Translations under genes and position numbers: made by a program
In this document: positions 1 to 34,612 of the stretch, in pieces
How the letters are laid out: the number at the start of each line of letters is the position of its first letter
How positions within the stretch are numbered: position 1 is the first letter of the stretch
The notes under the pieces: generated by a model
Seen by the model: the letters and a program-made list of their open reading frames with translations, nothing else
Told to the model about the DNA's origin: nothing
Databases searched by the model: none
Source: Escherichia coli
GTDB taxonomy: Bacteria > Pseudomonadota > Gammaproteobacteria > Enterobacterales > Enterobacteriaceae
DNA length: 64,000 bases
Assembly: GCF_024502345.1 (NCBI RefSeq)
Contig: NZ_JALDNN010000001.1
Reading direction: 5' to 3' (one strand)

Positions 1-46
1 AATAAGTGTCCGGATCAGCGTGGAATCCGCACAAATCCTGCATCGG

Positions 47-487
47 TCAGCGTCCCACCTGTGCAGAGGCCCAGCGCACGATGTCCTGCGAGCCCATGGC
101 GCCTGCCTGGCGGGCGATCTCACGTCCGCCCTGGAACAGGGCGAGCGTCGGAATGCTGCGGATACCGAACTGCGCGGCCAGGTGGGGCTCAGCCTCGGTG
201 TTCACCTTTGCCAGCCTGATCCCGGGTTCGAGCTGGCGCGCGGCTTGTTGAAACTGCGGCGCCATCATCTTGCACGGCCCGCACCAGGGCGCCCAGAAAT
301 CGACCAGCAGCGGCAGATCGCTGCGCTCCACGTGGCGCGAGAACGTCGCCGTCGTCAACTCGATGGGCTCGCCGGTGAACAAGGGCTGCTGGCAGCGGCC
401 GCAGTTGGAACGATCCGCGAGCTTGGCGGCCGGCACGCTGTTGATGGACTGGCAATGTGGGCAGACGATGTGGAGTTCATTTTTCAT
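47..487 (-). CDS. trx: Thioredoxin (TrxC-like, N-terminal CxxC...CxxC zinc-finger extension)
   Basis: WCGPC active-site motif; N-terminal CPHC...CGRC pair; 146 aa. Confidence 0.85.
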   Translation of the reverse strand: MKNELHIVCPHCQSINSVPAAKLADRSNCGRCQQPLFTGEPIELTTATFSRHVERSDLPLLVDFWAPWCGPCKMMAPQFQQAARQLEPGIRLAKVNTEAEPHLAAQFGIRSIPTLALFQGGREIARQAGAMGSQDIVRWASAQVGR

Positions 488-1628
488 GGTTCGCTTGCTT
501 GGACTGCGGTGAGGTTGCCTCGCTTCGGATCACCGACATCGCCGACCAATTTACGCCTTTGATCCAATCGTTCCCGTCTTCGCTCACGCCGGCATCTTCC
601 ACGTGAGCCGCAATGAAGGCTTCGGCTTGAATGAGCCCCGCTCTGACAGCATCTATCTTATTAGGCATCCGCAGGATTTCAGCAGCGCAGCCTGCATCCA
701 GCCCATCCACCCGGATAAGCAGAAAAATGCGGCGCCACAAGTGCGGCATACCCTTCATCAGGTCGAATGCAAATGCGAATTCGCTCGATCTGTCACCAAT
801 TTCCTCCTGTTCGGCGATTGCTGCTGGGTCGGGAAGCCGACTATCAGCCATGACGTCGGCCAGGCTGAGTGCGTCATCAGGCTGATAAAACTCGTAGAAC
901 TCTTCCTCTACCATGGCCTCCGCCATGTCCTGCGCATCCGCTTCGACCGGCGCATCCAGCGAAACGGCCTCGCCATATTGCCGGCTGTTTGCCACTTCGC
1001 GATCAATGACGGCAAAAAGATGCTTCAAAAGATCGAGGTAAGCGGCATTTTCTTCTGGAACGGATGTCCATACCGATTCAGCCAGAGCAATCGCTTCGTC
1101 CACCACGTCGTGCAGCGTCGGATAATCGCGAGGCAAATCACCGGCGGCATGCAGATAAGCCAACTCGCGTTGCGCAACGGCCTCAACCTTCGGCAGCAGC
1201 GTCTCGATTATCCCGCGTGCTTGCTGGACGACAGAGGCAGGTTGAGTGTCGATCCGCGCCTTGAGCTCGCGCAAGCGTTCACGACGCGCCTTACGCTTGA
1301 TTTGATCCTGAGCGCTCAGCCGATCAAAGTGCTTCTTGGCCTGCCGGAACAACGCCTGCGCTAGCATGTGCGCGAGAGGCGTCAGATCGTTATGCGATGC
1401 AGTGACGCTGACGATTTTTTTGCCCGGCAAGTGCATGTGGCCACTGGCCGTTAAGCGAGATCCTTTTTTCGCGCGTTCGAGGACGATTTGAAGACGTACC
1501 GAATCTTCGGAGCGCTTTTCGATCAGCGGCTTGAGAGCGGGTTCAACCGCTTTTTCTACAGACATTCGCCAAGGTTCATGAAATTCTTTTTCGACGAGTC
1601 GATAGCTATATTGTATACGCATGCTCAA
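477..1628 (-). CDS. Hypothetical protein with N-terminal ribosome-hibernation-factor (HPF/RaiA)-like fold pattern and long acidic C-terminal extension
   Basis: 383-aa ORF; N-terminal about 100 aa follow the beta-alpha-beta-beta-beta-alpha pattern of HPF/YfiA by eye; acidic low-complexity middle region; no search run. Confidence 0.4.
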   Translation of the reverse strand: MSMRIQYSYRLVEKEFHEPWRMSVEKAVEPALKPLIEKRSEDSVRLQIVLERAKKGSRLTASGHMHLPGKKIVSVTASHNDLTPLAHMLAQALFRQAKKHFDRLSAQDQIKRKARRERLRELKARIDTQPASVVQQARGIIETLLPKVEAVAQRELAYLHAAGDLPRDYPTLHDVVDEAIALAESVWTSVPEENAAYLDLLKHLFAVIDREVANSRQYGEAVSLDAPVEADAQDMAEAMVEEEFYEFYQPDDALSLADVMADSRLPDPAAIAEQEEIGDRSSEFAFAFDLMKGMPHLWRRIFLLIRVDGLDAGCAAEILRMPNKIDAVRAGLIQAEAFIAAHVEDAGVSEDGNDWIKGVNWSAMSVIRSEATSPQSKQANHEK

Positions 1629-1720
1629 GTCCTTTAGGGTTGTCCGCCCAGGTGAGTGGACCCGGGTGATTGGATATGTTGATTTTCAAAGATGATCTTA
1701 CGGTTTGGTTTTTCACGCCC

Positions 1721-2332
1721 TTACCTCTGACGCGCTTTGCGCAAACGCCAACTAAGAAGCAAAAGAGTCATACCGAAGATCGCAGCATGGAAACCCAATA
1801 CCCAGCCCGCGGCCAGAAATGATTCGATCGGGCGGGTAAAAAACATCCATAGGATGATCGCACCGAGGAGCACGGAAAGCAGCCCGCTGAGGGCAAGCCA
1901 GATCTCGCCCTTGATTTCCCGGCGCAGACGAACGGCGGCGGATATCTCCAGCATACCGGTGAAAATTGCCCAGAATGCCACGCTTACCCACAAGAAATAG
2001 GCCAACGCCAAAGTGGCAGCCAGAGGGGCAACTACCACAACGACACCGGTGAGTATGCCGACGATGCCGCTGAACAACAGCCAGCCCCAGCGCTGCTTTT
2101 GCCGCATTTGCCGCACCGCTGCAACCAGGTTGAACGCACCATTGACCAAAGAAAATGCGCCGAACACTATCGTCATGGCGAACAAAGCCGAGTGTGGCAT
2201 CCAGAATGCGAGGACTGCAAAAATCAACGCGAATATGCCGCGCAGCGCAAACAACCACCAATTTTGGGTCAGTGAACACACGGCATCGGCAGGGTTATCC
2301 GCATTCGAATCGGCGATGGTATTTGCATTCAT
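1721..2332 (-). CDS. hdeD: HdeD-family (DUF308) inner-membrane acid-stress protein
   Basis: 203 aa, about six predicted hydrophobic helices, position between yfdX and trx as in LHR. Confidence 0.75.
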   Translation of the reverse strand: MNANTIADSNADNPADAVCSLTQNWWLFALRGIFALIFAVLAFWMPHSALFAMTIVFGAFSLVNGAFNLVAAVRQMRQKQRWGWLLFSGIVGILTGVVVVVAPLAATLALAYFLWVSVAFWAIFTGMLEISAAVRLRREIKGEIWLALSGLLSVLLGAIILWMFFTRPIESFLAAGWVLGFHAAIFGMTLLLLSWRLRKARQR

Positions 2333-2417
2333 GCGATATCTCCTTGATGGATCATGAGATCAGGAAAATCAAGCCTTCATCGCGAAGAGAGGGGCTATTC
2401 GCCCCTCTCTTGCGGTT

Positions 2418-3305
2418 TTAGAACAGCTTTGACAGTCTCGCCTTGATTTCATCGAGCCAGCCTTTTCCGCTCCCGCCTCCGGCCGTCTTTTCCTTGACTT
2501 TCTTGAGTTCAGAGTACAGGGGCTCAAAGTCCTTCTTTTTGCCATAGCCCAGCAGTTCTGCCATTTCCAACTGCTGCCGGGCTTCGTTTAACAAGTCCTG
2601 CAGGCGTTCACCGGACGCCTCGCTGCGCTGGCCATCTTCTGTCAAGGTCTCGGCGCGCTTGACGAGCAGTTTGGCGCGCAGGATGGGCAGCGGGATGACG
2701 CTGAGTGTCTCGACGAGCGTGCCGAGCGCCAACTGCAGCGCGGCCTTGGCCTCTTCGATCTTGCCCTGATCGATCAGCGGCACGACGGATTTCACGGCTG
2801 CCGGGTAAGTCGCCAGAGGGATGTTGGTGACCGCAATCACGATTTCGCTGGCCAGCAATGCCAACACGCGACGAGCGCGTTGCACCTCGCCATGTTTGAG
2901 GGCATCCAGCGCCTCGTCAGTCATCGCCTCAACGGTTTCCGTGTTGGCGAACAAGTCGTGCACGATGGTGCGCACATCAACGGGGGCCAGGGCGAGCGTG
3001 GGTTCGCGTGCAACGATCAGCTCCAGCTTTCCCGTCACTTCGGCCAGCGTTGCCAGTGCTCGCGCGGATTCTTTTTCGTCCAGGGCCGCCAGCGCTGATT
3101 TGGTCAGCGCCAAGGCCGAGACGGCCTCATCGAGGACTTGTTTACGTTTGTCTGCCGCTTGCGAGTCCGTTTCCTTCTGAACCTCAGGCTGTACCTCCGT
3201 GACGACTTCAGGCTTGGGCTCTGGTCTGGCAGGAAGGCTGCTTACCGCGGCCTGTTCGTTCGTGCCTTCGTTGATCGCGTTGGGATTCGATGTTTGCTCA
3301 TTCAT
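2418..3305 (-). CDS. YfdX-family protein (second copy)
   Basis: 295 aa; shares conserved blocks (LELIVAREP..LAPVDV, ASEIVIAVTNIPLATYPAA) with the adjacent paralog. Confidence 0.7.
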   Translation of the reverse strand: MNEQTSNPNAINEGTNEQAAVSSLPARPEPKPEVVTEVQPEVQKETDSQAADKRKQVLDEAVSALALTKSALAALDEKESARALATLAEVTGKLELIVAREPTLALAPVDVRTIVHDLFANTETVEAMTDEALDALKHGEVQRARRVLALLASEIVIAVTNIPLATYPAAVKSVVPLIDQGKIEEAKAALQLALGTLVETLSVIPLPILRAKLLVKRAETLTEDGQRSEASGERLQDLLNEARQQLEMAELLGYGKKKDFEPLYSELKKVKEKTAGGGSGKGWLDEIKARLSKLF

Positions 3306-3407
3306 GGTGATATGCCTCGTATGAGATAGTGAAAATAGGGGAATCTATTGGGGCCGACTGCGAATATCGCGAGACTGACCGATGGAGCAGTCGGCCCCTT
3401 CATCACC

Positions 3408-4337
3408 TCAAAACAGCTTTTGGATGCGCGTCTTCAACTCGTCGAACCATCCATTGCCGCTTTTGCCACCAGCCGACTTTTGCTCAATGGACTTCACCTG
3501 ATCGAAGATGGGTTTGAAGTCCTCCTTCTTGCCATAACCCAGGATTTGCGCCAGCTCGATCTCCGTGCGCACGGACGACAGCAAGGTGCTGAGCTCCTCG
3601 TTCTGCTTGGCATCGCGCTTGTCAGTCTCGGCCAGCTTTTCAGCTTTTGCCATCGCGGCTTCGGCCCGTAGCACGGGCAGAGGGAGTACAACTTGGGTGA
3701 CCACCAGCGTGTTCAGTGCTCGGGCGAGTTCCGCCTTGGCGTTGTCGATCTTGCCGCTGTCGATGAGCCGTGCGGCCGACTTGATCGCTGCCGGGTACGT
3801 TGCCATCGGCAGGTTGTCGGTTTCGATCACGATTTCGCTGGCAAGATTGGCAACAATGGGCCGTGCCTTTTGCACCTCGCCATCATCCAACAACTCCTGA
3901 GACAACTTGACCGCTTTCTTGACCGATTCCACGTCGGCGTGGATGTCATGGGTGATGACGCTTACATCGACGGGCGCCAAAGCAATTTTTGGCTCACGCG
4001 CCAATACCAGTTCCAGCTTTCCGCTGGCCAGTTCCAGCGCAGCGAGCGCCTCCTTGGTCTTCTTTGCATCAAGGAGGATCAATGCCTCATGGGTCTTGGC
4101 CAGCGCAGTGATTGCATCTTGGGCGAGTTCGGCGCGCTTCTTCGCGGCTTCCCGGGCGACCTTGTCATCTACCTGTGGCAGCGCCGCTTTGGATGCGGCA
4201 GAGGGTGCTGCAGCACCTGGGCTAGAACCTGCCGCCGATTGGGCCAGAGCCGGTCCGCTCAGTCCGACGACGACCGCCAGGGCAAGTGCGGAGAAGATGT
4301 ATTGTGGCTGTTTGATATTCATGATGTTGGACTCCAA
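3408..4337 (-). CDS. YfdX-family periplasmic protein (first copy), signal peptide
   Basis: 309 aa; N-terminal signal-peptide-like hydrophobic segment; paralog of 2418-3305. Confidence 0.7.
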   Translation of the reverse strand: MESNIMNIKQPQYIFSALALAVVVGLSGPALAQSAAGSSPGAAAPSAASKAALPQVDDKVAREAAKKRAELAQDAITALAKTHEALILLDAKKTKEALAALELASGKLELVLAREPKIALAPVDVSVITHDIHADVESVKKAVKLSQELLDDGEVQKARPIVANLASEIVIETDNLPMATYPAAIKSAARLIDSGKIDNAKAELARALNTLVVTQVVLPLPVLRAEAAMAKAEKLAETDKRDAKQNEELSTLLSSVRTEIELAQILGYGKKEDFKPIFDQVKSIEQKSAGGKSGNGWFDELKTRIQKLF

Positions 4338-4343
4338 TTGAAG

Positions 4344-4802
4344 TTAATTGACTGAAATTTCAATCTGTTTCGGTTTGGCTTGCTCGGCCTTGACAAGCCG
4401 CACTTCCAGCACGCCGTCTTTCATGGAAGCCGTCACCTTGGTCGGATCAACGTTGTCAGGCAAGACAAAGCTGCGCACAAAGCGGCCATACGCACGTTCG
4501 ATGCGGTGGAACTTCTTGCCCTGCTCCTCTTTTTCCAGTTTGCGCTCGCCGCTGATGGTGAGCACACCGTTTTCCGCGCTGACGCGCACGGCATCCTTGG
4601 GGACCTCCGGCAGATCCAGCTTGAGGAGGAATGCGTTCTCATCCTCGCTGATGTCCACCATTGGTGCCCAGTCCGCCGTGGTCATGGCTTCGTTGCCGGT
4701 ACGGGCGCCCTGTCGCTGGGGTGTCCGTCCCAACATCGTCGCCAGGCGGTTTTGCAATTCATCCAGTTCCCGGAAGGGGTCCCACGGAGTCAATGCAGAC
4801 AT
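4344..4802 (-). CDS. Small heat shock protein, Hsp20/alpha-crystallin family (sHsp-GI)
   Basis: Alpha-crystallin domain (ISEDENAFLLKLDLPEV...GVLTISGER...GVLEVRLVK); start taken at internal Met (track ORF extends to 4865). Confidence 0.8.
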   Translation of the reverse strand: MSALTPWDPFRELDELQNRLATMLGRTPQRQGARTGNEAMTTADWAPMVDISEDENAFLLKLDLPEVPKDAVRVSAENGVLTISGERKLEKEEQGKKFHRIERAYGRFVRSFVLPDNVDPTKVTASMKDGVLEVRLVKAEQAKPKQIEISVN

Positions 4803-4896
4803 ATCGGTTCTCCTTGAACAATGCCGGTGAATTGGATGACGCACCGAACAGAGCCGCCGGCTCACTCTGAATAGCGCCTATTACTTTTCGTTTCTA

Positions 4897-6231
4897 TCAA
4901 GAACAGGCCATGAGCAAGAATAGTCCATGAAGCAATAGCGCATGTCCCATCTCGTGATAGGCCACGGTTTCCCGCTCCTTCGGATTGAGCACACGGTTCT
5001 TCCTTTCCAGGCCGGCCACGATGCGCTCGATGGCGGCGGTGAAGTCTTGCAGCTCCACAGCCTGCGCCTTGCGCCGCGTCGCGTTCAGCGCTGCTTCGTT
5101 CACGAGATTGGCCAGATCAGCGCCGGAAAAGCCGGTGGTCAACGCCGCCACCTGTTCCAGATCTACACCGTGGGCCAGGGTGATCTTCTTGACATGGACC
5201 TTCAGGATATCCAGGCGACCTTTCTTGTCGGGACGGTCCACCAGCACCTGACGGTCGAAGCGACCGGCACGAAGCAAGGCCTGATCGAGGATTTCGGGGC
5301 GGTTGGTGGCGGCGAGGATGATCAGCCCGACCGAGCTGTCGAAGCCATCCATTTCGGTGAGCAACTGGTTCAGCGTCTGCTCACGCTCGTCGTGTCCGCC
5401 GGTCGGTCCTCCGACACCGCGTGCGCGGCCCAAAGCATCCAGCTCATCAATGAAGATGATCGCCGGCGCCTGCCCGCGCGCCTGCTCGAACAGGTCGCGC
5501 ACGCGCGCCGCACCCACGCCGACGAACATCTCGACGAACTCCGAGCCTGAGATGGAAAAGAACGGTACCCCGGCCTCGCCCGCCACGGCCTTGGCCAGCA
5601 GGGTCTTGCCCGTGCCCGGCGGGCCAACCAGCAACACACCTTTCGGGATGCGCGCGCCGAGGCGGCCGTAATCCTGCGGGTTCTTCAGGAAGTCGACGAT
5701 TTCGACCAGCTCGGCCTTGGCCTCATCGACACCCGCGACATCGGCAAAGGTGACGCCGGTGTTCTTCTCCATGAACACCTTGGCGCGGCTCTTGCCGATG
5801 CTCAGGAAGCCGCCCATGCCCTGCTTCTCGGCGAAGCGGCGGAACAGGAAGAACCAGACGCCGAAGAAGGCCACCGCCGGCAGAATCCAGGAGAGCACAT
5901 CACGTAGCCAGGTGCTTTCCACCACCCGCGCGTAGGGCACCTCGTACTTGGACAGCCGCTCGGCCAGGTCGGGTTCGACGCGAGTGGCCACGATGGTGGT
6001 CTTGCCCCGGCTGTCCGGCGATTTCAGGCGCCCGGTGACCGTGCGGTCCGACACCAGCACTTCGGCGACGCGCCCCTCGGCCAGCGCCTTCTCGAATTCG
6101 CTGTAGGGCACGGGCTCGACGGTCTTGGCCGCCTGCCAGTAGTTCTGCAGCGTCAGCAGCAACAGGCCGGCGACGATCCAGTAGCCAATGTTCCATTGAT
6201 CTTTCTTTTCCATGGGCAATGTTCCTCGCAA
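4897..6231 (-). CDS. FtsH-like AAA+ protein, C-terminally truncated (ends at the HEMGH zinc-binding motif; M41 peptidase domain absent)
   Basis: N-terminal TM segment plus AAA module (GPPGTGKT Walker A, DELD Walker B); ORF stops 12 codons after HEMGHA; only 31 bp to next gene; downstream bases AT-richer. Confidence 0.75.
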
Positions 6232-6240
6232 GTCGTGCCG

Positions 6241-7701
6241 CTAGAGAATGGGGGTGAACAGACGGGCCACCCCGTCGCGCAAGCGCATGGCCAGCGGGTG
6301 GGCGCGCAACGCCTTCGCCGATATCTCGCCCGACACATCACGAGCGGCATCAAAAAGGGATGACAGCCGCGTAGACAACGCGGTGTCGTACACCTCCACA
6401 TTGAACTCGAAGTTGAGGCGCAAACTGCGCGCATCCCAATTGGCCGAACCCAGGCAGCACCACGCTCCGTCTACCAGCATCAGCTTGCTGTGGTCGAACG
6501 GGCCAGGCCGTTCGAAGATGCGCACACCGTGCTCCAGCACCTGCCAGTAGTGGGCGCGCGCGGCCCATTGCACCGTGGGATGGTCGCCGTTTGCGGGCGT
6601 CAGCACGTCGATACGCACGCCGCGCAACGCGGCCGTGCTCAGCGCCGCGATCATCGGCTGATCGGGGACGAAGTAAGGTGTCCAGATGCGCACCGAATGC
6701 TTCGCCGCGCTCAAAGCGCCCATGAAGGTCCAGCGCATCCGGTCCAGGGCCTCGTCGGGACCGGCCTCGATGCCGCGCGCCCAACTGGTTCCCGGCTCAT
6801 CAGCCGTTACGGGCGGTTCGCCCCAGAAACCCTCGTTGAGCCGCTCGCCCGTGGTATCGCACCAATCATCGGTGAAGCTCCGCATCAGATGCTCCACCAC
6901 CGGCCCGCGCAGACGAAAGTGCAAATCGTGACAGGCCTGGTCCGGCGCATCGGGCCGCCAGTACGGGCTGAAGATGTTCAATCCGCCGGTGAAACCCGTC
7001 TCGCCATCGATCACCAGCAGCTTGCGGTGATTCCGCAGATGCGCGGCATGCAGGCGCGCGGGAATCAATGTCGGGTTGAACGTCGCCGCCGGAACGCCGG
7101 CGCGCTGCAAGGCGCGGTAGGCGCTGCGGGGCGTCCAGCGGGCATACACGTCGTCGATCAGCACCCGCACTTGCACGCCGCGCTCATGAGCCCGGCGCAG
7201 CGCATCGACGAACTGCGCCCCGATGCCTTGGCTGTCGAAGATGTACGAGGTCAAGGCGACGCTGTACCGCGCCGATTCGATGGCGGCGAGCATGGCCGGG
7301 TAGGCCTGCTCGCCATCGACAAGCGGCTCGATGCGGTTGCCGCCGGTCAGCGACTGGCCGGTGGCGCGTCCCACCAGGTGGGCCAGACCGGCAAGTGGCG
7401 GCGATACAGCCTCGGGTATCGTGGGCGAGAGATCCTGCCGAACAGCAGGATCTGCCCCCGGGAAGAGCCGCCGCGCCCGCCGCTGGTAACGGTTGATGCC
7501 GAACAGCCCATACAGCAGCGAACCGCCCAGCGGCAGCAAGGCGATCAGCAGTACCCACAGCGTGGCCGATCGAGGGTCACGCTTGTAGATGACCGCATGC
7601 CCCGCTGTGGGGATAGCGACCGCCAGCGACACGAGGGTGGCTGCCCATGTCAGCCCATTGGGGTCGGACACGACAGCCTCCCATCGCTCAAGATTCGCCA
7701 T
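6241..7701 (-). CDS. cls: Cardiolipin synthase-like phospholipase D family protein
   Basis: Two HxKxxxxD motifs (HRKLLVID, HSKLMLVD); N-terminal membrane helices; about 487 aa from internal Met (track ORF 6241..7884 overlaps clpK). Confidence 0.8.
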   Translation of the reverse strand: MANLERWEAVVSDPNGLTWAATLVSLAVAIPTAGHAVIYKRDPRSATLWVLLIALLPLGGSLLYGLFGINRYQRRARRLFPGADPAVRQDLSPTIPEAVSPPLAGLAHLVGRATGQSLTGGNRIEPLVDGEQAYPAMLAAIESARYSVALTSYIFDSQGIGAQFVDALRRAHERGVQVRVLIDDVYARWTPRSAYRALQRAGVPAATFNPTLIPARLHAAHLRNHRKLLVIDGETGFTGGLNIFSPYWRPDAPDQACHDLHFRLRGPVVEHLMRSFTDDWCDTTGERLNEGFWGEPPVTADEPGTSWARGIEAGPDEALDRMRWTFMGALSAAKHSVRIWTPYFVPDQPMIAALSTAALRGVRIDVLTPANGDHPTVQWAARAHYWQVLEHGVRIFERPGPFDHSKLMLVDGAWCCLGSANWDARSLRLNFEFNVEVYDTALSTRLSSLFDAARDVSGEISAKALRAHPLAMRLRDGVARLFTPIL

Positions 7702-10537
7702 CCGCTGACTTCTTCTTGCGCGCAGGCTTGCTCGCGTCGCCAGGCGGTGCCTCGGCCACGTCCGCGGCATCGGGCTTTTCAGGCTCAGCCGACTTCGCGG
7801 GTGGCTCCTGGCGCTCGAAGACCACCCGTTCGGCCTTGTCGTCCCAGCGGGCGTTGGCGTGATCACCCTTGCCGATACCGCCACCCAGCATCTCGCGCGC
7901 CAGCGCGGTTTCCAGCTCGCTGCGGATCAGCCGCTTGAGCTCACGCGCGCCGAACTCGGGCTTGTAGCCTTCCTCCGCGAAGTGGTCGATCAAGGTCTGA
8001 TCGAAGGTCAGCGTCACGCCCTGGCTGGCGGCGTTGCGGGCCACACGATCAAGCTGCAGGCCGACGATATGGCGGATTTCCTCCTTGCCCAGCGCATGGA
8101 AGACGATGATCTCGTCGATGCGGTTGATGAACTCGGGGCGGAAGTGTCCGCGCAGCACGTCCATCACCTCGGACTTGGTCTTCTCGTATTCCTCGCCGGC
8201 GGCGCCACCGGCCTTCAGCCGACGCTGGATGATGTCCGAGCCCAGGTTCGAGGTGGCGATGATGATGGTATTGGTGAAATCCACCACCCGGCCCTTGCCG
8301 TCGGTGAGCCGCCCGTCGTCGAACACCTGCAGCAGGATGTTGTAGACGTCGGGGTGCGCTTTTTCGATCTCATCGAGCAGCAACACGCTGTAGGGCTTGC
8401 GACGCACCTTCTCGGTGAGCTGGCCGCCCTCGTCATAGCCCACATAACCCGGAGGCGCGCCCACCAGGCGTGCCACGGCATGGCGTTCCCCGTACTCGGA
8501 CATGTCGATGCGCAGCAGCGCACCTTCATCGCCATAGATGGACTCGGCCAGCGCCTTGGCGAGCTCGGTCTTGCCCACGCCGGTCGGCCCAAGGAACAGG
8601 AAAGTCGCCACCGGCTTGTCGCCTTCGCGCAGGCCCGCGCGCGACAACCGCACGGCATCGGCCACCGCGCGCACCGCTTCGTCCTGGCCCACCAGGCGCT
8701 CATGCAGCCGCTGCTCCAGATGCAGCAGCTTCTCGCGTTCTTCCACCGTCAGCTCGTTGACCGGAATGCCGGTCAGGCGCGAGACGATCTGCGCGACATG
8801 CTCGGCCTTGACTTCGGCGCTGCCCGAGGCGCGCTCGCGTTCCCATTCCTCGACGAGCTGCTTGAGTTCAGTCTCCTTGGCCTCGATGCGCTTGCCCAGC
8901 TCGGCGGCCTTGTCGTACTGCTTGCGCGAGGCCATGTAGTCCTGCTCACGCCGCAACTGGTGCAGTTCGGACTCCAGCTCCTGCACCGCCACCGGGCGAG
9001 CCGTGGCCGACAGCTTCACGCGTGCGGCCGCCTGGTCAAGCAGGTCGATGGCCTTGTCAGGCAAAAAGCGCGCGGTGATGTAGCGGTCCGACAACTCGGC
9101 GGCGGCGATGATCGCATCCTCGGTGATGCTGACCTTGTGGTGCGCCTCGAAGGTGTCGCGCAGGCCGCGCAGGATCATCATGGTCTGCGCTACCGTCGGC
9201 TCGGGCACCATCACCGGCTGGAAACGACGCTCCAGCGCGGCGTCCTTCTCGATGTACTTCTGATACTCGTTGAGCGTGGTGGCGCCGATCAGGTTCAGTT
9301 CGCCGCGCGCCATCATCGGCTTGAACACGTTGGCCACGTCCAGCCCGCCTTCGCCGCCACCCTGGCCTGCACCGACGATGGTGTGCACTTCATCGATGAA
9401 GAGAATCATCTCGCCCTGGTGCTCGGTCACTTCCTTGAGCACCTTCTGCACGCGCTCCTCGAACTCGCCGCGATACTTGGCGCCTGCCACCATGGCGTTG
9501 ATGTTGAGCTCGACCAGACGCTTGTCGCGCAGCGTCTCGGGCACTTCACCGGCGACCATGCGCTGCGCCAGCCCTTCGACAATGGCGGTCTTGCCGACGC
9601 CGGGCTCACCGATCAACACCGGGTTGTTTTTCTTGCGCCGGGCCAGCACCTCGATGGTGGTCTCGATCTCCTGCGCACGGCCGATGACTGGATCGAGTTT
9701 GCCCTCGCGCGCCATCTTGGTGAGGTCGCGCGAGTATTTATCCAGCTCGGGCGTGTTGGTCGGCGTCTCGGCGCGGCCATCCTCGGCCCCTTTGCCGACC
9801 ACCTTGCTTACCTGCTGGCGCAGCGCTTGCGGCGTGAGGCCGTAACGGCGCAGCAGGTTGGCCGCCAAACCTTCGCCTTCCTCAGCGAGCCCGATCAGGA
9901 AATGCTCCGGCCCGACATAAGAGTGGCCGAGTTCGTTGGAGGCCACGAAAGCGCGGCTGAGCGCGTCCTTGACCCGGGGCGACACGCCGACTTCGCCCTC
10001 GAACGGCTTCTCGCCGCGCTTGGCTTCGGATTCGATCTGTCGCTTGAGGTCATCGACCTTGATCTTGAACTGTCCCAGGATGGTCTTCACCACGTCGCTG
10101 TCGGATAGCGCCAGCAGCAGGTGTTCGGTATCGACTTCGGCGCGCCCGAACTCTGCAGCGTGTCGGGCGGCCTCCTGCAATAGGGCCTCGGACTGTTCGC
10201 TGATACGGCTGGCGAGCCCACTGCCGCGACGGCGCGCAGTGCCCGTACCGGCCGGGGCGGGTTCGCCGAACGAGGCATCGACCACCTCGTCGGTATCGGC
10301 CGCCATGGACGGCGAATCGTCACCGATGCGGAAGAAGTCGCTGCCGAGGAAGTCTTCGAACAAGCCGCTGCGCGAGCCAAACAAGGCTTCCAGCGGCGAG
10401 ACGGTGCGCTTTTGCTGGCGCGCCAGTTGGCGATAGTGATCGTCACACAACAGCATGGTGCTGTGGCGACCATTGAGATTGGCTTCCACCCGCACCGTGG
10501 CGGGCTGGCCGCAGACCTGGCATTGTTTTCTGGCCAT
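7688..10537 (-). CDS. clpK: ClpK/ClpG-type Clp AAA+ disaggregase with N-terminal zinc-ribbon-like extension
   Basis: Two AAA modules (GEPGVGKT and GPTGVGKT Walker A), Clp-N region, CQVCGQ...CDDHY N-terminus; AAGGAG RBS 7 nt upstream of chosen ATG; about 949 aa. Confidence 0.9.
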
Positions 10538-10634
10538 GCTCATGCTCCTTGAGAGGACTGATTTGACGAGGCGCCGAAGGTCACGGCGCCTCGCCATTCA
10601 CTTGGTTTTTCTGTAGAGAACAAGCCGATCGGCG

Positions 10635-11204
10635 TCAGCCGTTGATCGGGATCGAGCGGCCCTGCTTGGGCGCACTGGCCTCGCGCTTTTCCATTGTGAT
10701 CGTGAGTACGCCGTTCTTGAAAGCGGCCTTGATCGTGTCCTGGTTGGCATCGGTCGGCAGGTTCAGAGCGCGCTGAAAGCTGCCGTAGGAGCGCTCCACC
10801 CGGTGGAAACCGCCGTCTTTGCTTTCCTGCTCCTGACGCTTTTCACCGCGAACCAGCAGCACGTCGTTGTCGAGCGTGATATGGATGTCTTTTTCCTCGA
10901 CGCCGGGAACCTCCAAAGAAATCTTGTACTGCTTGTCGGTCTCCTGGATGTCCAGCGCCGGCTTCAGCAGGCCCGGCCAGTCCGACGGCCAGCGTGGCAT
11001 GGCCAGCGCCGGAAAGCCGAAGCCTCGAAACGTGTCGTCGAAGAGGCGGTCGATCTCGCGGTGCAATTGCAGGATGGGACTGACGGGCCCACCCGCTACC
11101 GGCAGGTCATTGCGCTGCACCGGCAGCGAGGCAGTGCTCTGTTGTTCTTCCTGCTCCTTCTTGAACCAGTTCCAGGGAGCCAACTTCTTGAAATCAATGT
11201 CCAT
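10635..11204 (-). CDS. Small heat shock protein Hsp20 (sHsp20)
   Basis: Alpha-crystallin domain (DIQETDKQYKISLEVPGV...GVLTITMEK); GGAGG RBS before internal ATG (MDIDFKK). Confidence 0.85.
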   Translation of the reverse strand: MDIDFKKLAPWNWFKKEQEEQQSTASLPVQRNDLPVAGGPVSPILQLHREIDRLFDDTFRGFGFPALAMPRWPSDWPGLLKPALDIQETDKQYKISLEVPGVEEKDIHITLDNDVLLVRGEKRQEQESKDGGFHRVERSYGSFQRALNLPTDANQDTIKAAFKNGVLTITMEKREASAPKQGRSIPING

Positions 11205-11239
11205 GTCACACCTCCAGAACAAAAATTGAAGACTCTCGC

Positions 11240-11521
11240 TCACTCCGTTTGCCTGCGGCTATGGATAGCGCGCCCAGGCAACACGGGATGTTTCGCTGAC
11301 TTCGGCTGCTCATCTGTACGTATCACCTCCTTCTTTCTGCCTGCTTGGATCTGATCATTGATCCATCGATCGATTTCACTTTGACGAAACCGCCACGTCC
11401 CGCCGACCTTGAAGGCCGGAATCTCCCCGTGCGCGGCGAGCCGGTAGAGCGTCCGCTTGCCGACCTTTAAGTAGGTAGCCAACTCGTCGAGTGTGAAGAT
11501 CGCCTGCTGGCGCGCTGTCAT
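11240..11521 (-). CDS. Small HTH DNA-binding protein (AlpA/excisionase/MerR-like), first gene of the heat-resistance locus
   Basis: Motif LDELATYLKVGKRTLYRLAAHGEIPAFKVGGTWRF typical of HTH_17/excisionase-type regulators; 4-nt overlap with sHsp20 ORF. Confidence 0.6.
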   Translation of the reverse strand: MTARQQAIFTLDELATYLKVGKRTLYRLAAHGEIPAFKVGGTWRFRQSEIDRWINDQIQAGRKKEVIRTDEQPKSAKHPVLPGRAIHSRRQTE

Positions 11522-12028
11522 ACCACCCCCACAAGTTCCGTCGTCACGCGGCCTCGCCTGAGGAAGTTCTTGCAAGACTTTGCAAGATATTGCGCCTAAT
11601 ATGCCAAAAGTCAAGAGTCAACATCCAGCGATCTGCTGGCCGATTGATGTGACTCAAATCTTCAAGGACGGTATGCCAGGGCGGGCCGGTCCGGCGCAGG
11701 GGACGGTGGGTTGATCGGGACCTTGCGGGCGCCGCCCACGGCCGCAGATCAAACACCGATCCTCACGTTGTAACCGAGCGCCCGCAGCCCCTTGCTCGTG
11801 CGCATGTTCCTTGGCGGAAACTCGTCTGGGCGCGCCCAGCCGACGATTTCCCCGAGGCTGCTCAGGCCAATGTGCGGAATTGCCCAGTCGTCGCTGCGGA
11901 TCGCGTTCCAGAGTCGGGCCGAAAAACCTCCGTTGCCCCAGACAACGTAGTTCAACAGTATCCGTCCTGCCAACACACCTTCCCGACACCGCCGCCGAAG
12001 GCCATGGCCCATCAAGCGGATTTTCCAT

Positions 12029-12399
12029 GCCCCCTCAGCGCCGTACCTACAGCAAATCTTTCAAGGCCCAGGTCATTCAGGAGTGTTCTGAACCCGGTGC
12101 CTCCATCGCAAACATCGCCTTGGGCTACAGCCTCAATGCCAACCTCGTCCACAAATGGATTCGGCTGCATACCCAGAAAACCACGGCTATCCAGCCAGCG
12201 TTCATCCCGTTGCCTTCTCAAATGCTCGGCGCGGGATCGCATGCTCAAGTGCGCTGCTGCGATCATGAGTTTGATCCAGTCGGCCCGTAATAATGGGCAC
12301 GATCCGTATGCCTATCTCAAGGATGTGCTGACACGGTTGCCGACGCAGCGGGCGAGTGAGATTGCAGAGCTGCTGCCGCATAGGTGGCATCCGGCATAG
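12029..12399 (+). mobile_element. IS66-family remnant: OrfA-like HTH fragment fused to a TnpC C-terminal fragment (internally deleted)
   Basis: RRTYSKSFKAQVIQE...NANLVHKWIR transposase-HTH pattern; separate frame ends ...GHDPYAYLKDVLTRLPTQRASEIAELLPHRWHPA like the IS66 TnpC C-terminus; central transposase region absent. Confidence 0.6.
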
Positions 12400-12639
12400 T
12401 CGCGCAAGACGGTCTGCCCGCACGCTTACGTTCAACAGCTCAAGCACCGTCCGCCCTTCGCGGGATCGTTGCCGCCAGAGCCACACGCCGAACTTTTCCA
12501 CCTTGTCGTCGCCGGCCTGCGGTCAGTCAGGCAAGCCCAGGTGCTTGTTTTCCTGCTTGATCGCGTGGTCTCGGATCGCGTGCACCCGGGAAACGGCATC
12601 CACGAACTGCCACCATCTCTTAGCTTGGCGGGGTCAAGC

Positions 12640-14497
<1,858 letters not shown>

Positions 14498-14505
<8 letters not shown>

Positions 14506-16000
14506 TCCATCTTCCTATCAATCGAATGAACGCAGTGGTCAGTGGTGCCACCCTGCTTTTTTCCAATCCACAACGCTTTTCCAGCTCCCAGCGCCTAGAC
14601 GTTATGCCTGTCTGTACATCCTTCAGCATCGCTGCAGTCAGGCGACGGATCTGATACTCGCCGACGGACTCGGCATAGCGATCCAGGAAGGTGCAGCAAA
14701 GAGGCAATTGATCGAGACGGTGCTCGACTGATGCCCGATGGGGTAGCTGCTGCAGGAACCAGTTGCGACTCCTGCGCGGAAGGCCCAGGTCTTCTTCGCT
14801 ACCTCTACCAATCCGGATCAGCAGGCGCACCAACCTTATGTCACGCGCTCGCCAGTCGATGTGGCTGTTGTTGCCCTGTCGGCGCTGCCTGACCTGGTTC
14901 GCAACCATCAGCCAGTGTCGGTCATGACGATAGAGCCAGGCGTAACATGCCCCTGCTCCGTCTTGCCTGGCTGCCTTGGCTCCACCGTGATTAGCCAGTG
15001 CTTGCAGCCAAATGGCTCGGTACTGCTGCTTTTGCTCAAACTCAGCAGGGAGCAGCTGCACTGACCGCTCGGAGGCAAGGTCGACCTGGCGAGTCTTCGC
15101 CTCGCTGATCAGCTCGCCAGCATGCTGGCCAGGGCGCAGGCTGGTCCAGACGATCAGATGCTGCAGCGCACTGAATCCCTTGCGATGCTTCCTGAACATC
15201 GCCAACAGCCAAGGTGGAGGCTCTCCGGATGTCAGCAGACCGTTCGCAGCAAGCCAATCCCTTTGATGGGATGCCAGGATCTTCTCCCAGATGACTTCAG
15301 CCCTGACCTGCCGGCCTCGCCTGGCGCCGCACTCTGTAGCCAGGTACCGGTACAGGTTGGTCCAGCGTCCGTAGCCAGGCGATTGCACCTCTTCGAGCGC
15401 CAGCAGCTGCATAGCAGCCTTGGCGAGCCTGATAGCCTCTTCGCCCACGGGACTCACGCGAAGATCACGGGGCAGAAACAGTGGAGAGGCTGTATGAAAC
15501 TCGTGCCGCTGCGCTCGACGGAACGGGATAGGTGAGTTCAGGAGCTGACAGCCATGCTCGGGACAGGCATCTATCCCTTGAATCTGCCAGCTGCGCCGCC
15601 AGTAGGGTTCACCGTAGCGCGCAGCCATATCTTCAAAGCAGATCGGGCAGTAACGCAGCCAATCGGGCCACTTGACCAAGGCCGTCGAGGCCCCAGACAG
15701 ACCAATCGTCGGCCGGTCGGGAGCAAGCATGGCCTGAAAAAGATCGGTACGGCGCTCCGGCGGAATGAAAGGGGCATAGAGCGGGAACAGCGTGTGATTC
15801 AGGATCATGCCTTCCGCATCCAAGCCCGTGTTGTTCGCCAACGCAGTCAGGTGTGTGGGCAGATCGGTGATCGCGGCAACCTTGCTGTCACCGAAAAGCA
15901 TGTGCAGCAAGGTCTTGTGGCTGCCTATCCCCAGATGTACCCGGCACCGGGCAATACCGCTGTAAAGCAGTTCGTCCGGGTAGAGCCTGGGGAAGTACAT
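14498..16000 (-). CDS. tnsD: TnsD/TniQ-family target-site selection protein
   Basis: 500 aa; N-terminal TniQ-like region (YPDELLYSGIARC) and CPICFED...CPEHGC zinc-finger motif. Confidence 0.75.
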
Positions 16001-16001
16001 G

Positions 16002-17612
16002 TCAGCTCGCTCTCAGCAGAGGCCGTAGATCGAGGATCAAGCCAGCCTGCTTGAATCTGTCATAGGCCTCGCTTTCAGGCCCATCGGCATAACGTCGGCG
16101 CAGATCCTCCTCGGATAGGCACCCCCACTCCGTCCGCTTAACTCTGGAAATGCCGGGCCTCTTGGGAGCGTCCTGCGCGAGGTAGGCCGTGGCCTTGTGA
16201 ATCAGGGCCGCCAGCGGGATGTCCGGATTCTCCGCCAACAATTCATCGGCCATGGGAATGGCGATGTCCCTCGGGATTTCCATACCTTCGAGCAGGGCGG
16301 CCAACCGCTTTGCCTTGTCATCAGCCGGAGGGGCCGGTGGTTTAGGTTGGGGGACGCTATCCAGAGAGCGAGTCAGGGTCAGCAACCGTCCCTCGATCTC
16401 TGGCATCAGCAGGTCGTCATATTTGGCGATCAGCTCGGGCCTACCGCTCCGCAAGGCCGCCAGCATCGGATGGACCGGTTTGAACTCGTCCTCGAAAACC
16501 CTGCGCAGCAACAGCGGCTTAATGCACTCGACACCTGTCACTATCGCCCGGATCTGCGCCAGCGCGAACAGCTTGATGACGATGTCCATGACCCCTTGGG
16601 TGAGGTCGTACATCGTAGCCTCCAGTTCATCATCCAGCGGCGCCGCATTTCGCAGCCACTGATACTTCCAAAGCCGCTTCAACAGACGCTTCCAATGCTC
16701 GTCCCGAGGCAACCTATCCCAGCGGATGCTGCCCAACCCGGAGACCCGCCGAGCAGCCCGGAACGTGCGCTGGAAGAACTTGCTGGCCCGGTGGGTGCCG
16801 ACCTGAATGATCGGAACACCGATGGTGTTCACCAGCGACACGAAGAAATTGTGCATTTTTTCGGCACCACCGGAGCGTGCCTCGTTGAGGTTCTGAACCT
16901 CGTCGATGATCAGCACTCCGAGCGTGTGCAGATTGGCCAGCTGGCACATGGATGCCAGCAGACGTTTGGTACCCAGCTTCTTGCGTCCGTGGCTACGGCT
17001 GTAGTGGGTACCCAGGATCTTGTCTACTTCGTTGAAGAAGCTCAGGCACAGCTCATCCAAGTCACCGTCAATTGGGCAGTCGATCTTCAGGTAGACCAGT
17101 TGGGTGATGTCGTAATCAGGGTGATGGAGAGCTTGGGGGTACATGCCCAGAATCCGCTCCAGCGTGCGCGTCTTGCCGCAACCGGAGCAGCCGAACAGCG
17201 ACAGGCTGTTGGCCGTAGAGGAGACACTCTGGTACACCGCCGCATCCAGATCCTCCTCCTCGACACGGCGATAGCCATTCTGCAGGTGCGCATACCAGGC
17301 ACCGCTGGCCGGATTCCGACCGATGTACCCTTGACGGATCATCAGGCTGATCTTGCTCTCCAGCTCCAAGTGATGGCTCAGCGGCTGGAAGAAGCCGTGC
17401 AACAGGCGGGCAATCGCATGTGCCCTGAGCCGACCATCCAGAAGCGCCTCCTGCGGCTCGAAACCGGGAAGCTGCTGCAATAGATCGACCACCTCCTGCA
17501 GATCAGGAATCGGAGGCAATGCGCTGATGAGCGGATTGTCCTGATACTCGGGAAGCTGCTGCTCCTGGTAACGCGCCAGGGGAATGACTCCGCGCTGGAA
17601 TTCTTCAGTCAT
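16002..17612 (-). CDS. tnsC: TnsC AAA+ transposition regulator
   Basis: 536 aa; Walker A GCSGCGKT; Walker B-like IIDEVQN; placed between tnsB and tnsD. Confidence 0.8.
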   Translation of the reverse strand: MTEEFQRGVIPLARYQEQQLPEYQDNPLISALPPIPDLQEVVDLLQQLPGFEPQEALLDGRLRAHAIARLLHGFFQPLSHHLELESKISLMIRQGYIGRNPASGAWYAHLQNGYRRVEEEDLDAAVYQSVSSTANSLSLFGCSGCGKTRTLERILGMYPQALHHPDYDITQLVYLKIDCPIDGDLDELCLSFFNEVDKILGTHYSRSHGRKKLGTKRLLASMCQLANLHTLGVLIIDEVQNLNEARSGGAEKMHNFFVSLVNTIGVPIIQVGTHRASKFFQRTFRAARRVSGLGSIRWDRLPRDEHWKRLLKRLWKYQWLRNAAPLDDELEATMYDLTQGVMDIVIKLFALAQIRAIVTGVECIKPLLLRRVFEDEFKPVHPMLAALRSGRPELIAKYDDLLMPEIEGRLLTLTRSLDSVPQPKPPAPPADDKAKRLAALLEGMEIPRDIAIPMADELLAENPDIPLAALIHKATAYLAQDAPKRPGISRVKRTEWGCLSEEDLRRRYADGPESEAYDRFKQAGLILDLRPLLRAS

Positions 17613-34566: not shown

Positions 34567-34580
34567 CAAACCAGATAATA

Positions 34581-34612
34581 AAAAGGCACCGATTCCCCCG
34601 GTGCCTTTTTTA
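34581..34612. terminator. Bidirectional rho-independent terminator between convergent mltD and yafE
   Basis: Stem GGCACCG / CGGTGCC flanked by A-run and T-run. Confidence 0.8.

What the first reader, a model, noticed from the sequence alone, without database searches (positions are those of the whole stretch)
2333..3407. GC-rich inverted repeats in intergenic spacers of the yfdX-hdeD cluster
A perfect 10-bp stem (AGAGAGGGGC / GCCCCTCTCT, 5-nt loop) lies between yfdX2 and hdeD, and an 11-bp stem (GGGGCCGACTG / CAGTCGGCCCC) with a 27-nt loop lies between yfdX1 and yfdX2. Neither has a proper U-tract on the coding strand, so they look more like RNA-processing or stability elements, or regulator-binding palindromes, than terminators.
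Basis: seen in the sequence. Interest (0 to 1): 0.15.

Follow-up and report, generated by a model that had tools for sequence, protein, structure and literature searches.

The report
Conserved hairpins between heat-resistance operon genes
Two strong GC-rich stem-loops sit just after the stop codons of yfdX1 and yfdX2 in a mobile heat-resistance island; they are real and conserved, lack a terminator tail, and most likely are ordinary hairpins inside an operon's mRNA that tune its stability or read-through.

Summary
Both inverted repeats exist where stated and are slightly longer than described. IR1 is 11 bp perfect with a 5-nt loop. IR2 is 12 bp perfect with 25 nt between the arms. Perfect repeats this long are about nine times more frequent in the window than in shuffles. 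The locus is the heat-resistance island LHR/tLST, read on the minus strand.

Each hairpin starts 6-9 nt after a yfdX stop codon. Neither has a U-tract (tail scores 0.45-1.85, against 3.8 for a canonical terminator). Neither is a dispersed repeat or matches Rfam.

Across about 50 related loci, IR1 occurs in three remodelled versions that all fold, although the spacer is only 65-70% identical between them. That favours selection on shape rather than sequence. IR2 is kept mainly by sequence conservation: one compensatory pair, some mismatches, and no covariation above controls.

Distant yfdX homologues carry unrelated hairpins at the same place, one of them a canonical terminator. The hsp20-clpK spacer has a similar tail-less hairpin.

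Best reading: mRNA hairpins between genes of one operon, probably decayed terminators, acting as 3'-end protectors or leaky attenuators. Function is inferred, not shown. This is an ordinary feature of low interest.

The parts
2381..2414 (-). IR1 hairpin in the yfdX2-hdeD spacer. The mRNA 5' arm is 2411..2401 (AAGAGAGGGGC), the loop is 2400..2396 (GAAUA), and the 3' arm is 2395..2385 (GCCCCUCUCUU). Three further pairs across a bulge extend it to 2381-2414. It starts 6 nt after the yfdX2 stop codon (2418-2420).
   Evidence: dG -27.5, z -6.5; hairpin kept in all 17 spacer variants of three structural types
3350..3398 (-). IR2 long irregular hairpin in the yfdX1-yfdX2 spacer. The 12-bp lower stem pairs 3398..3387 with 3361..3350. 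The inner helix pairs AUCG (3383..3380) with CGAU (3369..3366). The apical loop is 10 nt (GUCAGUCUCG). It starts 9 nt after the yfdX1 stop codon (3408-3410).
   Evidence: dG -30.9, z -6.35; present in all 13 spacer variants, with single mismatches in some
3306..3407 (-). The whole yfdX1-yfdX2 spacer, 102 nt here and 101-104 nt in every island copy examined. After IR2 it holds a small AAUAG/CUAUU hairpin (3349..3334), an AU-rich single-stranded stretch (UAUUUUCACUAUCU), and the yfdX2 Shine-Dalgarno GAGG (3318..3315). A possible closing helix pairs GGUGAUG (3407..3401) with UAUCACC (3312..3306).
   Evidence: The closing helix is only 0.15-0.83 probable in native context. The spacer is 93-94% identical between island clades whose third codon positions are 81-82% identical (Fisher p = 0.005 and 0.0004)
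2333..2417 (-). The whole yfdX2-hdeD spacer (85 nt). IR1 is followed by the AU-rich segment GAUUUUCCUGAUCUCAUGAUCC and the hdeD Shine-Dalgarno AAGGAG (2345..2340), which a second weak hairpin partly pairs.
   Evidence: Between hairpin types the spacer is only 65-70% identical, below third codon positions
3408..4322 (-). yfdX1, the upstream gene of IR2
   Evidence: RefSeq annotation of the record identical over this stretch; ORF
2418..3305 (-). yfdX2, downstream of IR2 and upstream of IR1
   Evidence: PF10938 YfdX
1721..2332 (-). hdeD-GI (DUF308 membrane protein), downstream of IR1

Best explanation
Both repeats most likely act as hairpins in the sense (minus-strand) mRNA of the heat-resistance island (LHR/tLST), which is thought to be transcribed as one long multi-gene message. 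Each sits directly after the stop codon of an abundant YfdX gene and 40-50 nt before the next start codon.

They are not efficient factor-independent terminators, because the U-rich tail is missing. They are probably what remains of each yfdX gene's own terminator hairpin after the genes were joined into an operon.

The likely present-day role has two parts. First, they block 3'-to-5' exonucleases, so that upstream yfdX1 and yfdX2 mRNA segments survive once RNase E cuts the AU-rich single-stranded stretch just downstream. Second, they may let only part of the transcription or message continue into hdeD and later genes. Either way the effect is more YfdX1/YfdX2 than downstream products.

Shown here: existence, stability, position, absence of a U-tract, conservation, and retention of the IR1 hairpin through sequence turnover. 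Inferred: the RNA level of action, the strand, the processing step, and the effect on expression.
For: (1) Very stable hairpins far beyond chance.

(2) They start 6 and 9 nt after the stop codons on the coding strand.

(3) There is no U-tract. The scan calls neither. Tail scores are 0.45-1.85, against 3.78 for a canonical terminator. ARNold in Mercer 2015 found only a terminator after orf16.

(4) IR1 exists as three versions with different stems and loops: AAGAGAGGGGC/GAAUA, AGAGGGGCG/CGUCG and GAGAGGGGGCGC/AUA. All fold at -17 to -29 kcal/mol. The spacer is only 65-70% identical between types, below third codon positions at about 82%.

(5) IR2 shows one compensatory C-G to U-A exchange and three G.U replacements. 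In Ralstonia the stem is remodelled but a long hairpin of -23.8 remains.

(6) Distant yfdX homologues (42-52% amino-acid identity) have unrelated GC-rich hairpins at the same place. In L028 it is a canonical terminator. In L024 it lies between yfdX and a DUF308/hdeD gene.

(7) The hsp20-clpK spacer of the same island has a 13-bp GC hairpin without a tail, although dna-shsp20-clpG is described as one operon (PMC7685784).

(9) AU-rich unpaired stretches follow both hairpins.
Against: There is no transcript 3'-end, half-life or read-through data for this locus.

Covariation in IR2 is not above shuffled controls: 1 pair with changes on both sides, against 1.1 expected.

Several natural variants carry a mismatch in the IR2 stem. 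These include the functional reference LHR of AW1.7, as well as TC24-type, P. saxonica and Stenotrophomonas copies. The perfect stem is therefore not required.

Wobble substitutions favour the sense strand only 4 to 2, by my own count, so the strand is not settled.

Island diversity is low. Nearly all copies are 87-100% identical in YfdX2, which limits the power of any comparative test.

Perfect palindromes can also be regenerated by template-switch mutation without selection.

The protein-abundance evidence is biased, because HdeD is a membrane protein.
Confidence: 0.5

Rival explanations
1. The hairpins are functionless relics. They are decayed terminators of formerly separate yfdX genes. 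They persist because the island spread recently, and because palindromes are repaired or regenerated by template switching during replication.
For: Island diversity is low (13 and 17 spacer variants among about 50 loci). There is no covariation above controls in IR2. Mismatches are tolerated in functional islands such as AW1.7. IR1 type B looks like a new perfect palindrome built next to a decayed old left arm, GGATAGGGCG. The Ralstonia and Stenotrophomonas spacer 2 is less conserved than third codon positions (Fisher p = 0.003 for P. aeruginosa against Stenotrophomonas and p = 0.10, not significant, for the window against Ralstonia).
Against: IR1 stays a strong hairpin in three independently remodelled forms while the rest of the spacer drifts to 65-70% identity. 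Spacer 2 between the two main clades is as conserved as non-synonymous positions (93-94% against 81-82% at third positions; p = 0.005 and 0.0004). Unrelated hairpins occupy the same position after distant yfdX genes.
Confidence: 0.2
2. Spacer 2 is a structured RNA element between the two genes that controls yfdX2 translation. A closing helix pairs the 7 nt after the yfdX1 stop codon with the 7 nt before the yfdX2 start codon, and IR2 acts as a clamp. Ribosomes terminating on yfdX1, or heat, would open the yfdX2 start site.
For: The minimum-energy fold of the isolated spacer shows this helix in all 10 variants. In Stenotrophomonas it appears in a shifted register after changes on both strands. 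The spacer keeps a nearly fixed length (101-104 nt) and is highly conserved. The island confers heat resistance.
Against: With flanking coding sequence the helix has probability of only 0.49 (window) and 0.15 (AW1.7), and competes with pairing to UUCAC. Predicted accessibility of the Shine-Dalgarno and AUG barely changes from 30 to 42 C (0.36 to 0.41). There is no ROSE or fourU match in Rfam. The helix is invariant in 9 of 10 variants, so it carries no covariation signal.
Confidence: 0.1
3. The repeats are DNA palindromes bound by a regulator, either an operator or an insulator. Alternatively, IR2 separates upstream transcription from an internal promoter of yfdX2.
For: BPROM predicted a promoter 26 bp upstream of ORF9 (yfdX2) in AW1.7 (PMC4563881). 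The IR2 sequence, including its loop (GTCTCGCGAT is invariant), is conserved. The wobble evidence for RNA is not decisive.
Against: No sigma-70-like site scores above 7 of 12 in either spacer, and the scan found none in 12 kb. IR1 arm sequences differ between variants although the island's regulator genes are conserved. IR2 arms are 25 bp apart. There is no similarity to the palindromes of the orf1 promoter region. GC-rich perfect stems with 3-5 nt loops are typical of RNA hairpins.
Confidence: 0.1
4. They are weak factor-independent terminators, or pause sites, that work without a U-tract in the island's original GC-rich host.
For: IR1 has the outline of a bidirectional terminator with the A/U tracts interrupted: AAGAGA-GGGGC...GCCCC-UCUCUU. 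A distant homologue has AAAAGGGG...CCCCUUUU. The island is 61.8% GC against 51.1% for the E. coli AW1.7 genome (PMC4563881), and beta-proteobacterial copies exist.
Against: Tail scores are far below canonical values. The UCUCUU tail is kept unchanged in all three IR1 types rather than improved. Downstream genes are expressed (PMC7010813). IR2 has no U-rich tail at all.
Confidence: 0.1

Closest known systems
Stabilising stem-loops between genes of one operon that block 3' exonucleases, such as the REP hairpin between malE and malF in E. coli and the hairpins of the Rhodobacter capsulatus puf operon (from my own knowledge of the literature, not retrieved here)
   Same: A very stable GC-rich hairpin lies directly after the stop codon of a highly expressed upstream gene inside a multi-gene operon. 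There is no U-tract. An AU-rich unpaired stretch follows.
   Different: No experimental 3' ends or half-lives are available here. These hairpins are single-copy and specific to the island, not dispersed REP elements. IR2 is unusually long (49 nt) and has a conserved inner helix and loop.
Rho-independent (intrinsic) terminators and leaky attenuators inside operons
   Same: A GC-rich stem-loop follows a stop codon. IR1 has the stem and loop dimensions of a terminator, and a purine-rich 5' flank mirrored by a pyrimidine-rich 3' flank. Distant yfdX genes carry true terminators at this position.
   Different: The defining U-tract is absent. Same-direction genes follow within 85-102 nt and are expressed.
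RNA thermometers within heat-shock operons, such as ROSE-like elements upstream of ibpA and ibpB in E. coli (from my own knowledge)
   Same: A structured spacer in a heat-protection operon, with the downstream start region partly paired.
   Different: There is no predicted melting between 30 and 42 C and no Rfam match. The GC-rich stems are far too stable and do not contain the Shine-Dalgarno sequence.
The hairpin in the hsp20-clpK spacer of the same island (window 10564-10596, minus strand)
   Same: A 13-bp GC-rich perfect stem of dG -26.3 with no U-tract, between same-direction genes reported to be co-transcribed (PMC7685784).
   Different: It lies 38 nt after the stop codon rather than 6-9 nt, and its sequence is unrelated.

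Membership tests
Rho-independent (intrinsic) terminator | GC-rich stem of about 5-14 bp with a short loop (3-8 nt) | tested here: inconclusive
   IR1 meets it, with an 11-14 bp stem and a 5-nt loop. IR2 does not: 25 nt lie between the arms, giving an irregular 49-nt hairpin.
Rho-independent (intrinsic) terminator | U-rich tract immediately 3' of the stem on the transcribed strand | tested here: not met
   Neither hairpin is called by the terminator scan. Tail scores are 0.45 for IR2 and 0.60-1.85 for IR1, against 3.78 for the canonical terminator of L028. All variants lack a U-tract.
Rho-independent (intrinsic) terminator | RNA 3' ends form at the site | not testable with these tools
   No end-mapping data were found.
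3'-exonuclease-blocking stabiliser hairpin between genes of an operon | Stable sense-strand stem-loop just downstream of the upstream gene's stop codon, inside an operon | tested here: met
   Operon status rests on the literature only (PMC4563881).
3'-exonuclease-blocking stabiliser hairpin between genes of an operon | Hairpin shape conserved independently of sequence | tested here: inconclusive
   IR1 is kept in three different versions. IR2 is kept mostly by sequence conservation, with covariation not above controls.
3'-exonuclease-blocking stabiliser hairpin between genes of an operon | Upstream mRNA segment is more stable or abundant than the downstream one, and this depends on the hairpin | not testable with these tools
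Dispersed repeats (REP/BIME or miniature transposable elements) | Many copies scattered through a genome | tested here: not met
   The arms occur only at these sites in the 64-kb window. Spacer 2 occurs at 293 places in 281 plasmid records, and every listed hit is a full-length copy.
RNA thermometer (ROSE, fourU) | Shine-Dalgarno and AUG held in a labile helix that opens between 30 and 42 C, with family sequence motifs | tested here: not met
   Predicted accessibility changes by 0.05 or less from 30 to 42 C. There is no Rfam hit.
Palindromic operator of a DNA-binding regulator | Arm sequence conserved and overlapping or adjacent to a promoter | tested here: inconclusive
   IR1 arms differ between types, so the feature is not met. 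IR2 arms are conserved, but no credible promoter is present: the best match is 7 of 12 and the scan found none. The only hint is a BPROM prediction in the literature.
Known RNA family (Rfam 15) | Score at or above the family's gathering threshold | tested here: not met
   The best hits score 17.5 bits or less against thresholds of 36-95.

The most novel reading that the evidence does not exclude
The yfdX1-yfdX2 spacer, which keeps a nearly fixed length (101-104 nt), is a dedicated multi-helix RNA module made of a closing helix, the IR2 clamp and two small hairpins. It would physically join the yfdX1 stop codon to the yfdX2 start codon and so fix the ratio of the two YfdX paralogues, by termination-dependent or heat-dependent opening of the start site. 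That would be a new class of structured coupling element carried by a mobile stress island.
Probability: 0.1. Interest if true: 0.35.

Novelty: new member of a known kind. Interest (0 to 1): 0.12.

Why it matters
The heat-resistance island (LHR/tLST) lets E. coli, Klebsiella, Cronobacter and Pseudomonas survive cooking temperatures and chlorine, and its internal transcription is poorly mapped. [quoted passage not shown] They would also give simple targets for dissecting the operon.

Apart from that, they are a routine feature of bacterial operons. Nothing here suggests a new mechanism.

Tried and rejected
(1) Canonical terminator. Rejected because there is no U-tract on either hairpin in any variant.

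(2) Dispersed repeat or mobile element. Rejected because both are single-copy and restricted to the island.

(3) Known RNA family. Nothing approaches threshold.

(4) RNA thermometer. Predicted start-site accessibility is nearly flat from 25 to 60 C.

(5) Small protein encoded in spacer 2. A 33-codon ORF runs from AUG at 3403 to a UGA that overlaps the yfdX2 AUG. It is rejected because a +2 nt insertion in Ralstonia and a -1 nt deletion in Stenotrophomonas break the frame, and 6 of the 7 nucleotide differences between the window and AW1.7 change the amino acid (my own translation).

(6) Sigma-70 promoter in either spacer. The best match is 7 of 12.

(7) Similarity of the repeats to the orf1 promoter region, as a shared operator. 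None was seen.

(8) Closing helix of spacer 2 as a robust feature. It is weakened in native context.

(9) More variants for covariation. A genome scan, six protein-to-contig look-ups and a metagenome scan added few new spacer variants, because the island is nearly clonal. No YfdX2 relatives between about 55% and 85% identity were recovered.

(10) Literature on transcript ends. Mercer 2017 (PMC5626989) is not held. One literature search returned only irrelevant papers. No end-mapping study of the island was found.

(11) Using wobble pairs to assign the strand. The tally is 4 for sense and 2 for antisense, which is not decisive.

Full report
[quoted passage not shown] The genes are trx-GI (47-487), orf11 (477-1628), hdeD-GI (1721-2332), yfdX2 (2418-3305), yfdX1 (3408-4322), sHSP20-GI (4344-4802), a truncated ftsH, a PLD-like gene, clpK, sHSP20 and orf1. 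Window 1700-4900 is 100% identical to the E. coli ABWA45 chromosome and 97% identical to a Pseudomonas fragi plasmid. It is about 90% identical to the reference LHR of E. coli AW1.7. The window as a whole is a close relative of ABWA45, not the same record (99.8% over 15 kb, with structural differences further on).

**The observation.** Both repeats are real and slightly longer than reported.
- IR1 has 11-bp perfect arms at 2385-2395 and 2401-2411 with a 5-nt loop. On the coding strand it extends to 14 pairs (2381-2414), dG -27.5 kcal/mol, z = -6.5.
- IR2 has 12-bp perfect arms at 3350-3361 and 3387-3398 with 25 nt between them. dG is -30.9 and z = -6.35. An inner 4-bp helix caps a 10-nt loop.
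- The window has four perfect repeats of this class, against 0.46 expected from dinucleotide shuffles.

**No terminator tail.** On the mRNA, IR1 starts 6 nt after the yfdX2 stop codon and IR2 starts 9 nt after the yfdX1 stop codon. Neither is followed by a U-tract. The terminator scan calls neither. TransTermHP-style tail scores are 0.45 for IR2 and at best 1.85 for IR1. A canonical terminator found after a distant yfdX homologue scores 3.78. Mercer et al. 2015 ran ARNold on the AW1.7 island and reported a single same-strand terminator, 177 bp after orf16 (PMC4563881).

**What they are not.**
- They are not dispersed repeats. The arms occur nowhere else in the window, and the 102-nt spacer 2 occurs at 293 places in 281 plasmid records, always as a full-length copy.
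- No Rfam family comes near threshold.
- No sigma-70-like promoter scores above 7 of 12 in either spacer. The literature contains a BPROM prediction 26 bp upstream of ORF9, which is yfdX2.
- Predicted accessibility of the yfdX2 and hdeD start regions hardly changes between 25 and 60 C, so an RNA-thermometer reading has no support.
- A 33-codon ORF spans spacer 2 and ends in an AUGA overlap with yfdX2. It is broken by indels in Ralstonia and Stenotrophomonas and changes mostly non-synonymously, so it is not a gene.

**Comparative evidence: the data set.** I collected about 50 copies of the island from several sources: E. coli genomes, plasmids, one genome per species, contigs encoding YfdX2 variants, and a metagenome scan. 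Diversity is low. YfdX2 relatives are either 87-100% identical or 55% and below. This gives 13 distinct versions of spacer 2 and 17 of spacer 1.

**IR1 is the informative case.** It exists in three structural versions:
- Type A (this window, P. fragi, Ralstonia): stem AAGAGAGGGGC, loop GAAUA.
- Type B (AW1.7 and most Enterobacteriaceae): stem AGAGGGGCG(C), loop CGUCG, preceded by what looks like a decayed older left arm.
- Type C (Acinetobacter, P. aeruginosa, Tepidimonas): stem GAGAGGGGGCGC, loop AUA.

All three fold into strong hairpins of -17 to -29 kcal/mol. Yet the spacer is only 65-70% identical between types, less than third codon positions of the flanking genes at about 82%. The shape is kept while the sequence turns over. 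That argues for a requirement on structure and against a sequence-specific operator. The caveat is that template-switch mutation can rebuild perfect palindromes without selection.

**IR2 behaves differently.** The whole spacer keeps a nearly fixed length (101-104 nt). Between the two main island clades it is as conserved as non-synonymous positions (93-94% against 81-82% at third positions; Fisher p = 0.005 and 0.0004). The stem shows one clean compensatory exchange (C-G to U-A) and three G.U replacements. It also shows single mismatches in AW1.7-type, TC24-type, P. saxonica and Stenotrophomonas copies. Covariation measures are not above shuffled controls. In Ralstonia the stem is rebuilt differently but still gives a long hairpin. 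The Ralstonia and Stenotrophomonas spacers are less conserved than third codon positions. The difference is significant for P. aeruginosa against Stenotrophomonas (p = 0.003) but not for the window against Ralstonia (p = 0.10). The perfect stem is therefore not essential, and the evidence is conservation rather than covariation.

**Wider pattern.** Distant yfdX homologues (42-52% amino-acid identity) in unrelated bacteria carry unrelated GC-rich hairpins directly after the stop codon.
- In a Methylothermaceae genome it is a textbook bidirectional terminator (AAAAGGGG...CCCCUUUU).
- In a gammaproteobacterial genome it sits between yfdX and a DUF308/hdeD gene, the same arrangement as here.
- In two Nitrospirales genomes it is a perfect palindrome without a tail.

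Within the island, the hsp20-clpK spacer has a 13-bp GC hairpin that also lacks a tail, although these genes are described as one operon (PMC7685784). IR1 looks like a terminator whose A and U tracts have been interrupted (AAGAGA...UCUCUU).

**Most likely mechanism.** The hairpins are best read as sense-strand mRNA structures inherited from each yfdX gene's own terminator. They would have been weakened enough to allow read-through once the genes became part of a long operon. The LHR is suggested to be one polycistronic mRNA (PMC4563881). Their probable present role is to protect the 3' ends of upstream yfdX segments after cleavage in the AU-rich stretches that follow both hairpins, or to attenuate read-through. 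Either would give more YfdX1/YfdX2 than downstream products. [quoted passage not shown] That observation is indirect. I put this reading at 0.5.

**Rival readings.**
- Functionless relics kept by recency and palindrome repair (0.2).
- A structured translational-coupling module in spacer 2 (0.1).
- DNA-level binding, or a link to an internal promoter (0.1).
- Weak termination or pausing without a tail (0.1).

The coupling idea rests on a helix that pairs GGUGAUG, right after the yfdX1 stop codon, with UAUCACC, right before the yfdX2 AUG. This helix appears in the fold of every isolated spacer variant. In native context it is only 0.15-0.83 probable, and it is invariant in 9 of 10 variants, so it carries no covariation signal.

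**Verdict.** They are new, unannotated examples of a familiar kind of operon feature. Interest is low.

Noticed in passing
window 10564-10596 (minus strand), hsp20-clpK spacer: A third strong GC-rich hairpin without a U-tract (13 bp, UGGCGAGGCGCCG / CGGCGCCUCGUCA, 7-nt loop, dG -26.3) lies between sHSP20 and clpK. Tail-less hairpins therefore recur in the longer spacers of this island.
   Followed up: partly
window 1647-1666 (minus strand), hdeD-orf11 spacer: A smaller hairpin, CCCGGGU...ACCUGGG (7 pairs, dG -10.3), lies about 20 nt upstream of the orf11 start region.
   Followed up: no
window 3302-3403 (minus strand): A 33-codon ORF fills the yfdX1-yfdX2 spacer. It starts at an AUG 4 nt after the yfdX1 stop codon and ends in a UGA that overlaps the yfdX2 AUG. 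The frame is broken in the Ralstonia and Stenotrophomonas variants and substitutions are mostly non-synonymous, so it is probably not coding.
   Followed up: yes
window 3401-3410 (minus strand): The sequence straddling the yfdX1 stop codon (its last two bases, GA, plus the next six nt), GAGGUGAU, is an 8-nt perfect match to the extended Shine-Dalgarno consensus. Its predicted pairing partner AUCACC, just before the yfdX2 AUG, resembles the 16S rRNA 3' end.
   Followed up: partly
L014, L021, L022, L023 (yfdX2-hdeD spacer); L020 (upstream of yfdX2): In Brucella, Methylorubrum and Rhodoplanes the yfdX2-hdeD spacer is interrupted right after CACCCCATTAG. L014 has an annotated IS5-family transposase just downstream. 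The IR1 hairpin is left intact. In a Rubrivivax genome sequence unrelated to the usual yfdX1-yfdX2 spacer abuts the yfdX2 start, replacing yfdX1 and IR2.
   Followed up: no
L004, L005, L016, L037 compared with the window: These islands are mosaics. They combine the window-type yfdX1-yfdX2 spacer (identical sequence) with the type-B yfdX2-hdeD spacer of AW1.7. This implies recombination between island variants within or near yfdX2.
   Followed up: no
window 6-15413 and 15414-16969: The window is 99.8% identical to E. coli ABWA45 but is not that record. It has a 12-nt indel near 7730 (clpK 3' part) and an extra 1.56-kb segment. That segment overlaps a 536-aa ORF at 16002-17612 that was not run against any family library, next to a tnsD-like ORF. 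In the ABWA45 record the island is flanked by genes of a Tn7-like element (tnsA, a Mu-transposase-like gene, tnsD, tnsE).
   Followed up: partly
window 4897-6231 (minus strand): The island's ftsH copy is truncated at its C-terminus and is annotated as a pseudogene in the matching record. This leaves a 94-nt gap before sHSP20-GI.
   Followed up: no
window 477-1628 (minus strand), orf11: One RefSeq record names this conserved 383-aa island protein 'RNA polymerase sigma factor', but it has no Pfam match at E <= 0.001.
   Followed up: partly
window 34580-34610: A textbook bidirectional terminator (AAAAAGGCACCG / CGGTGCCTTTTT, 7-nt loop, followed by TTATTTAT) served as an in-window contrast to the tail-less island hairpins.
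   Followed up: no
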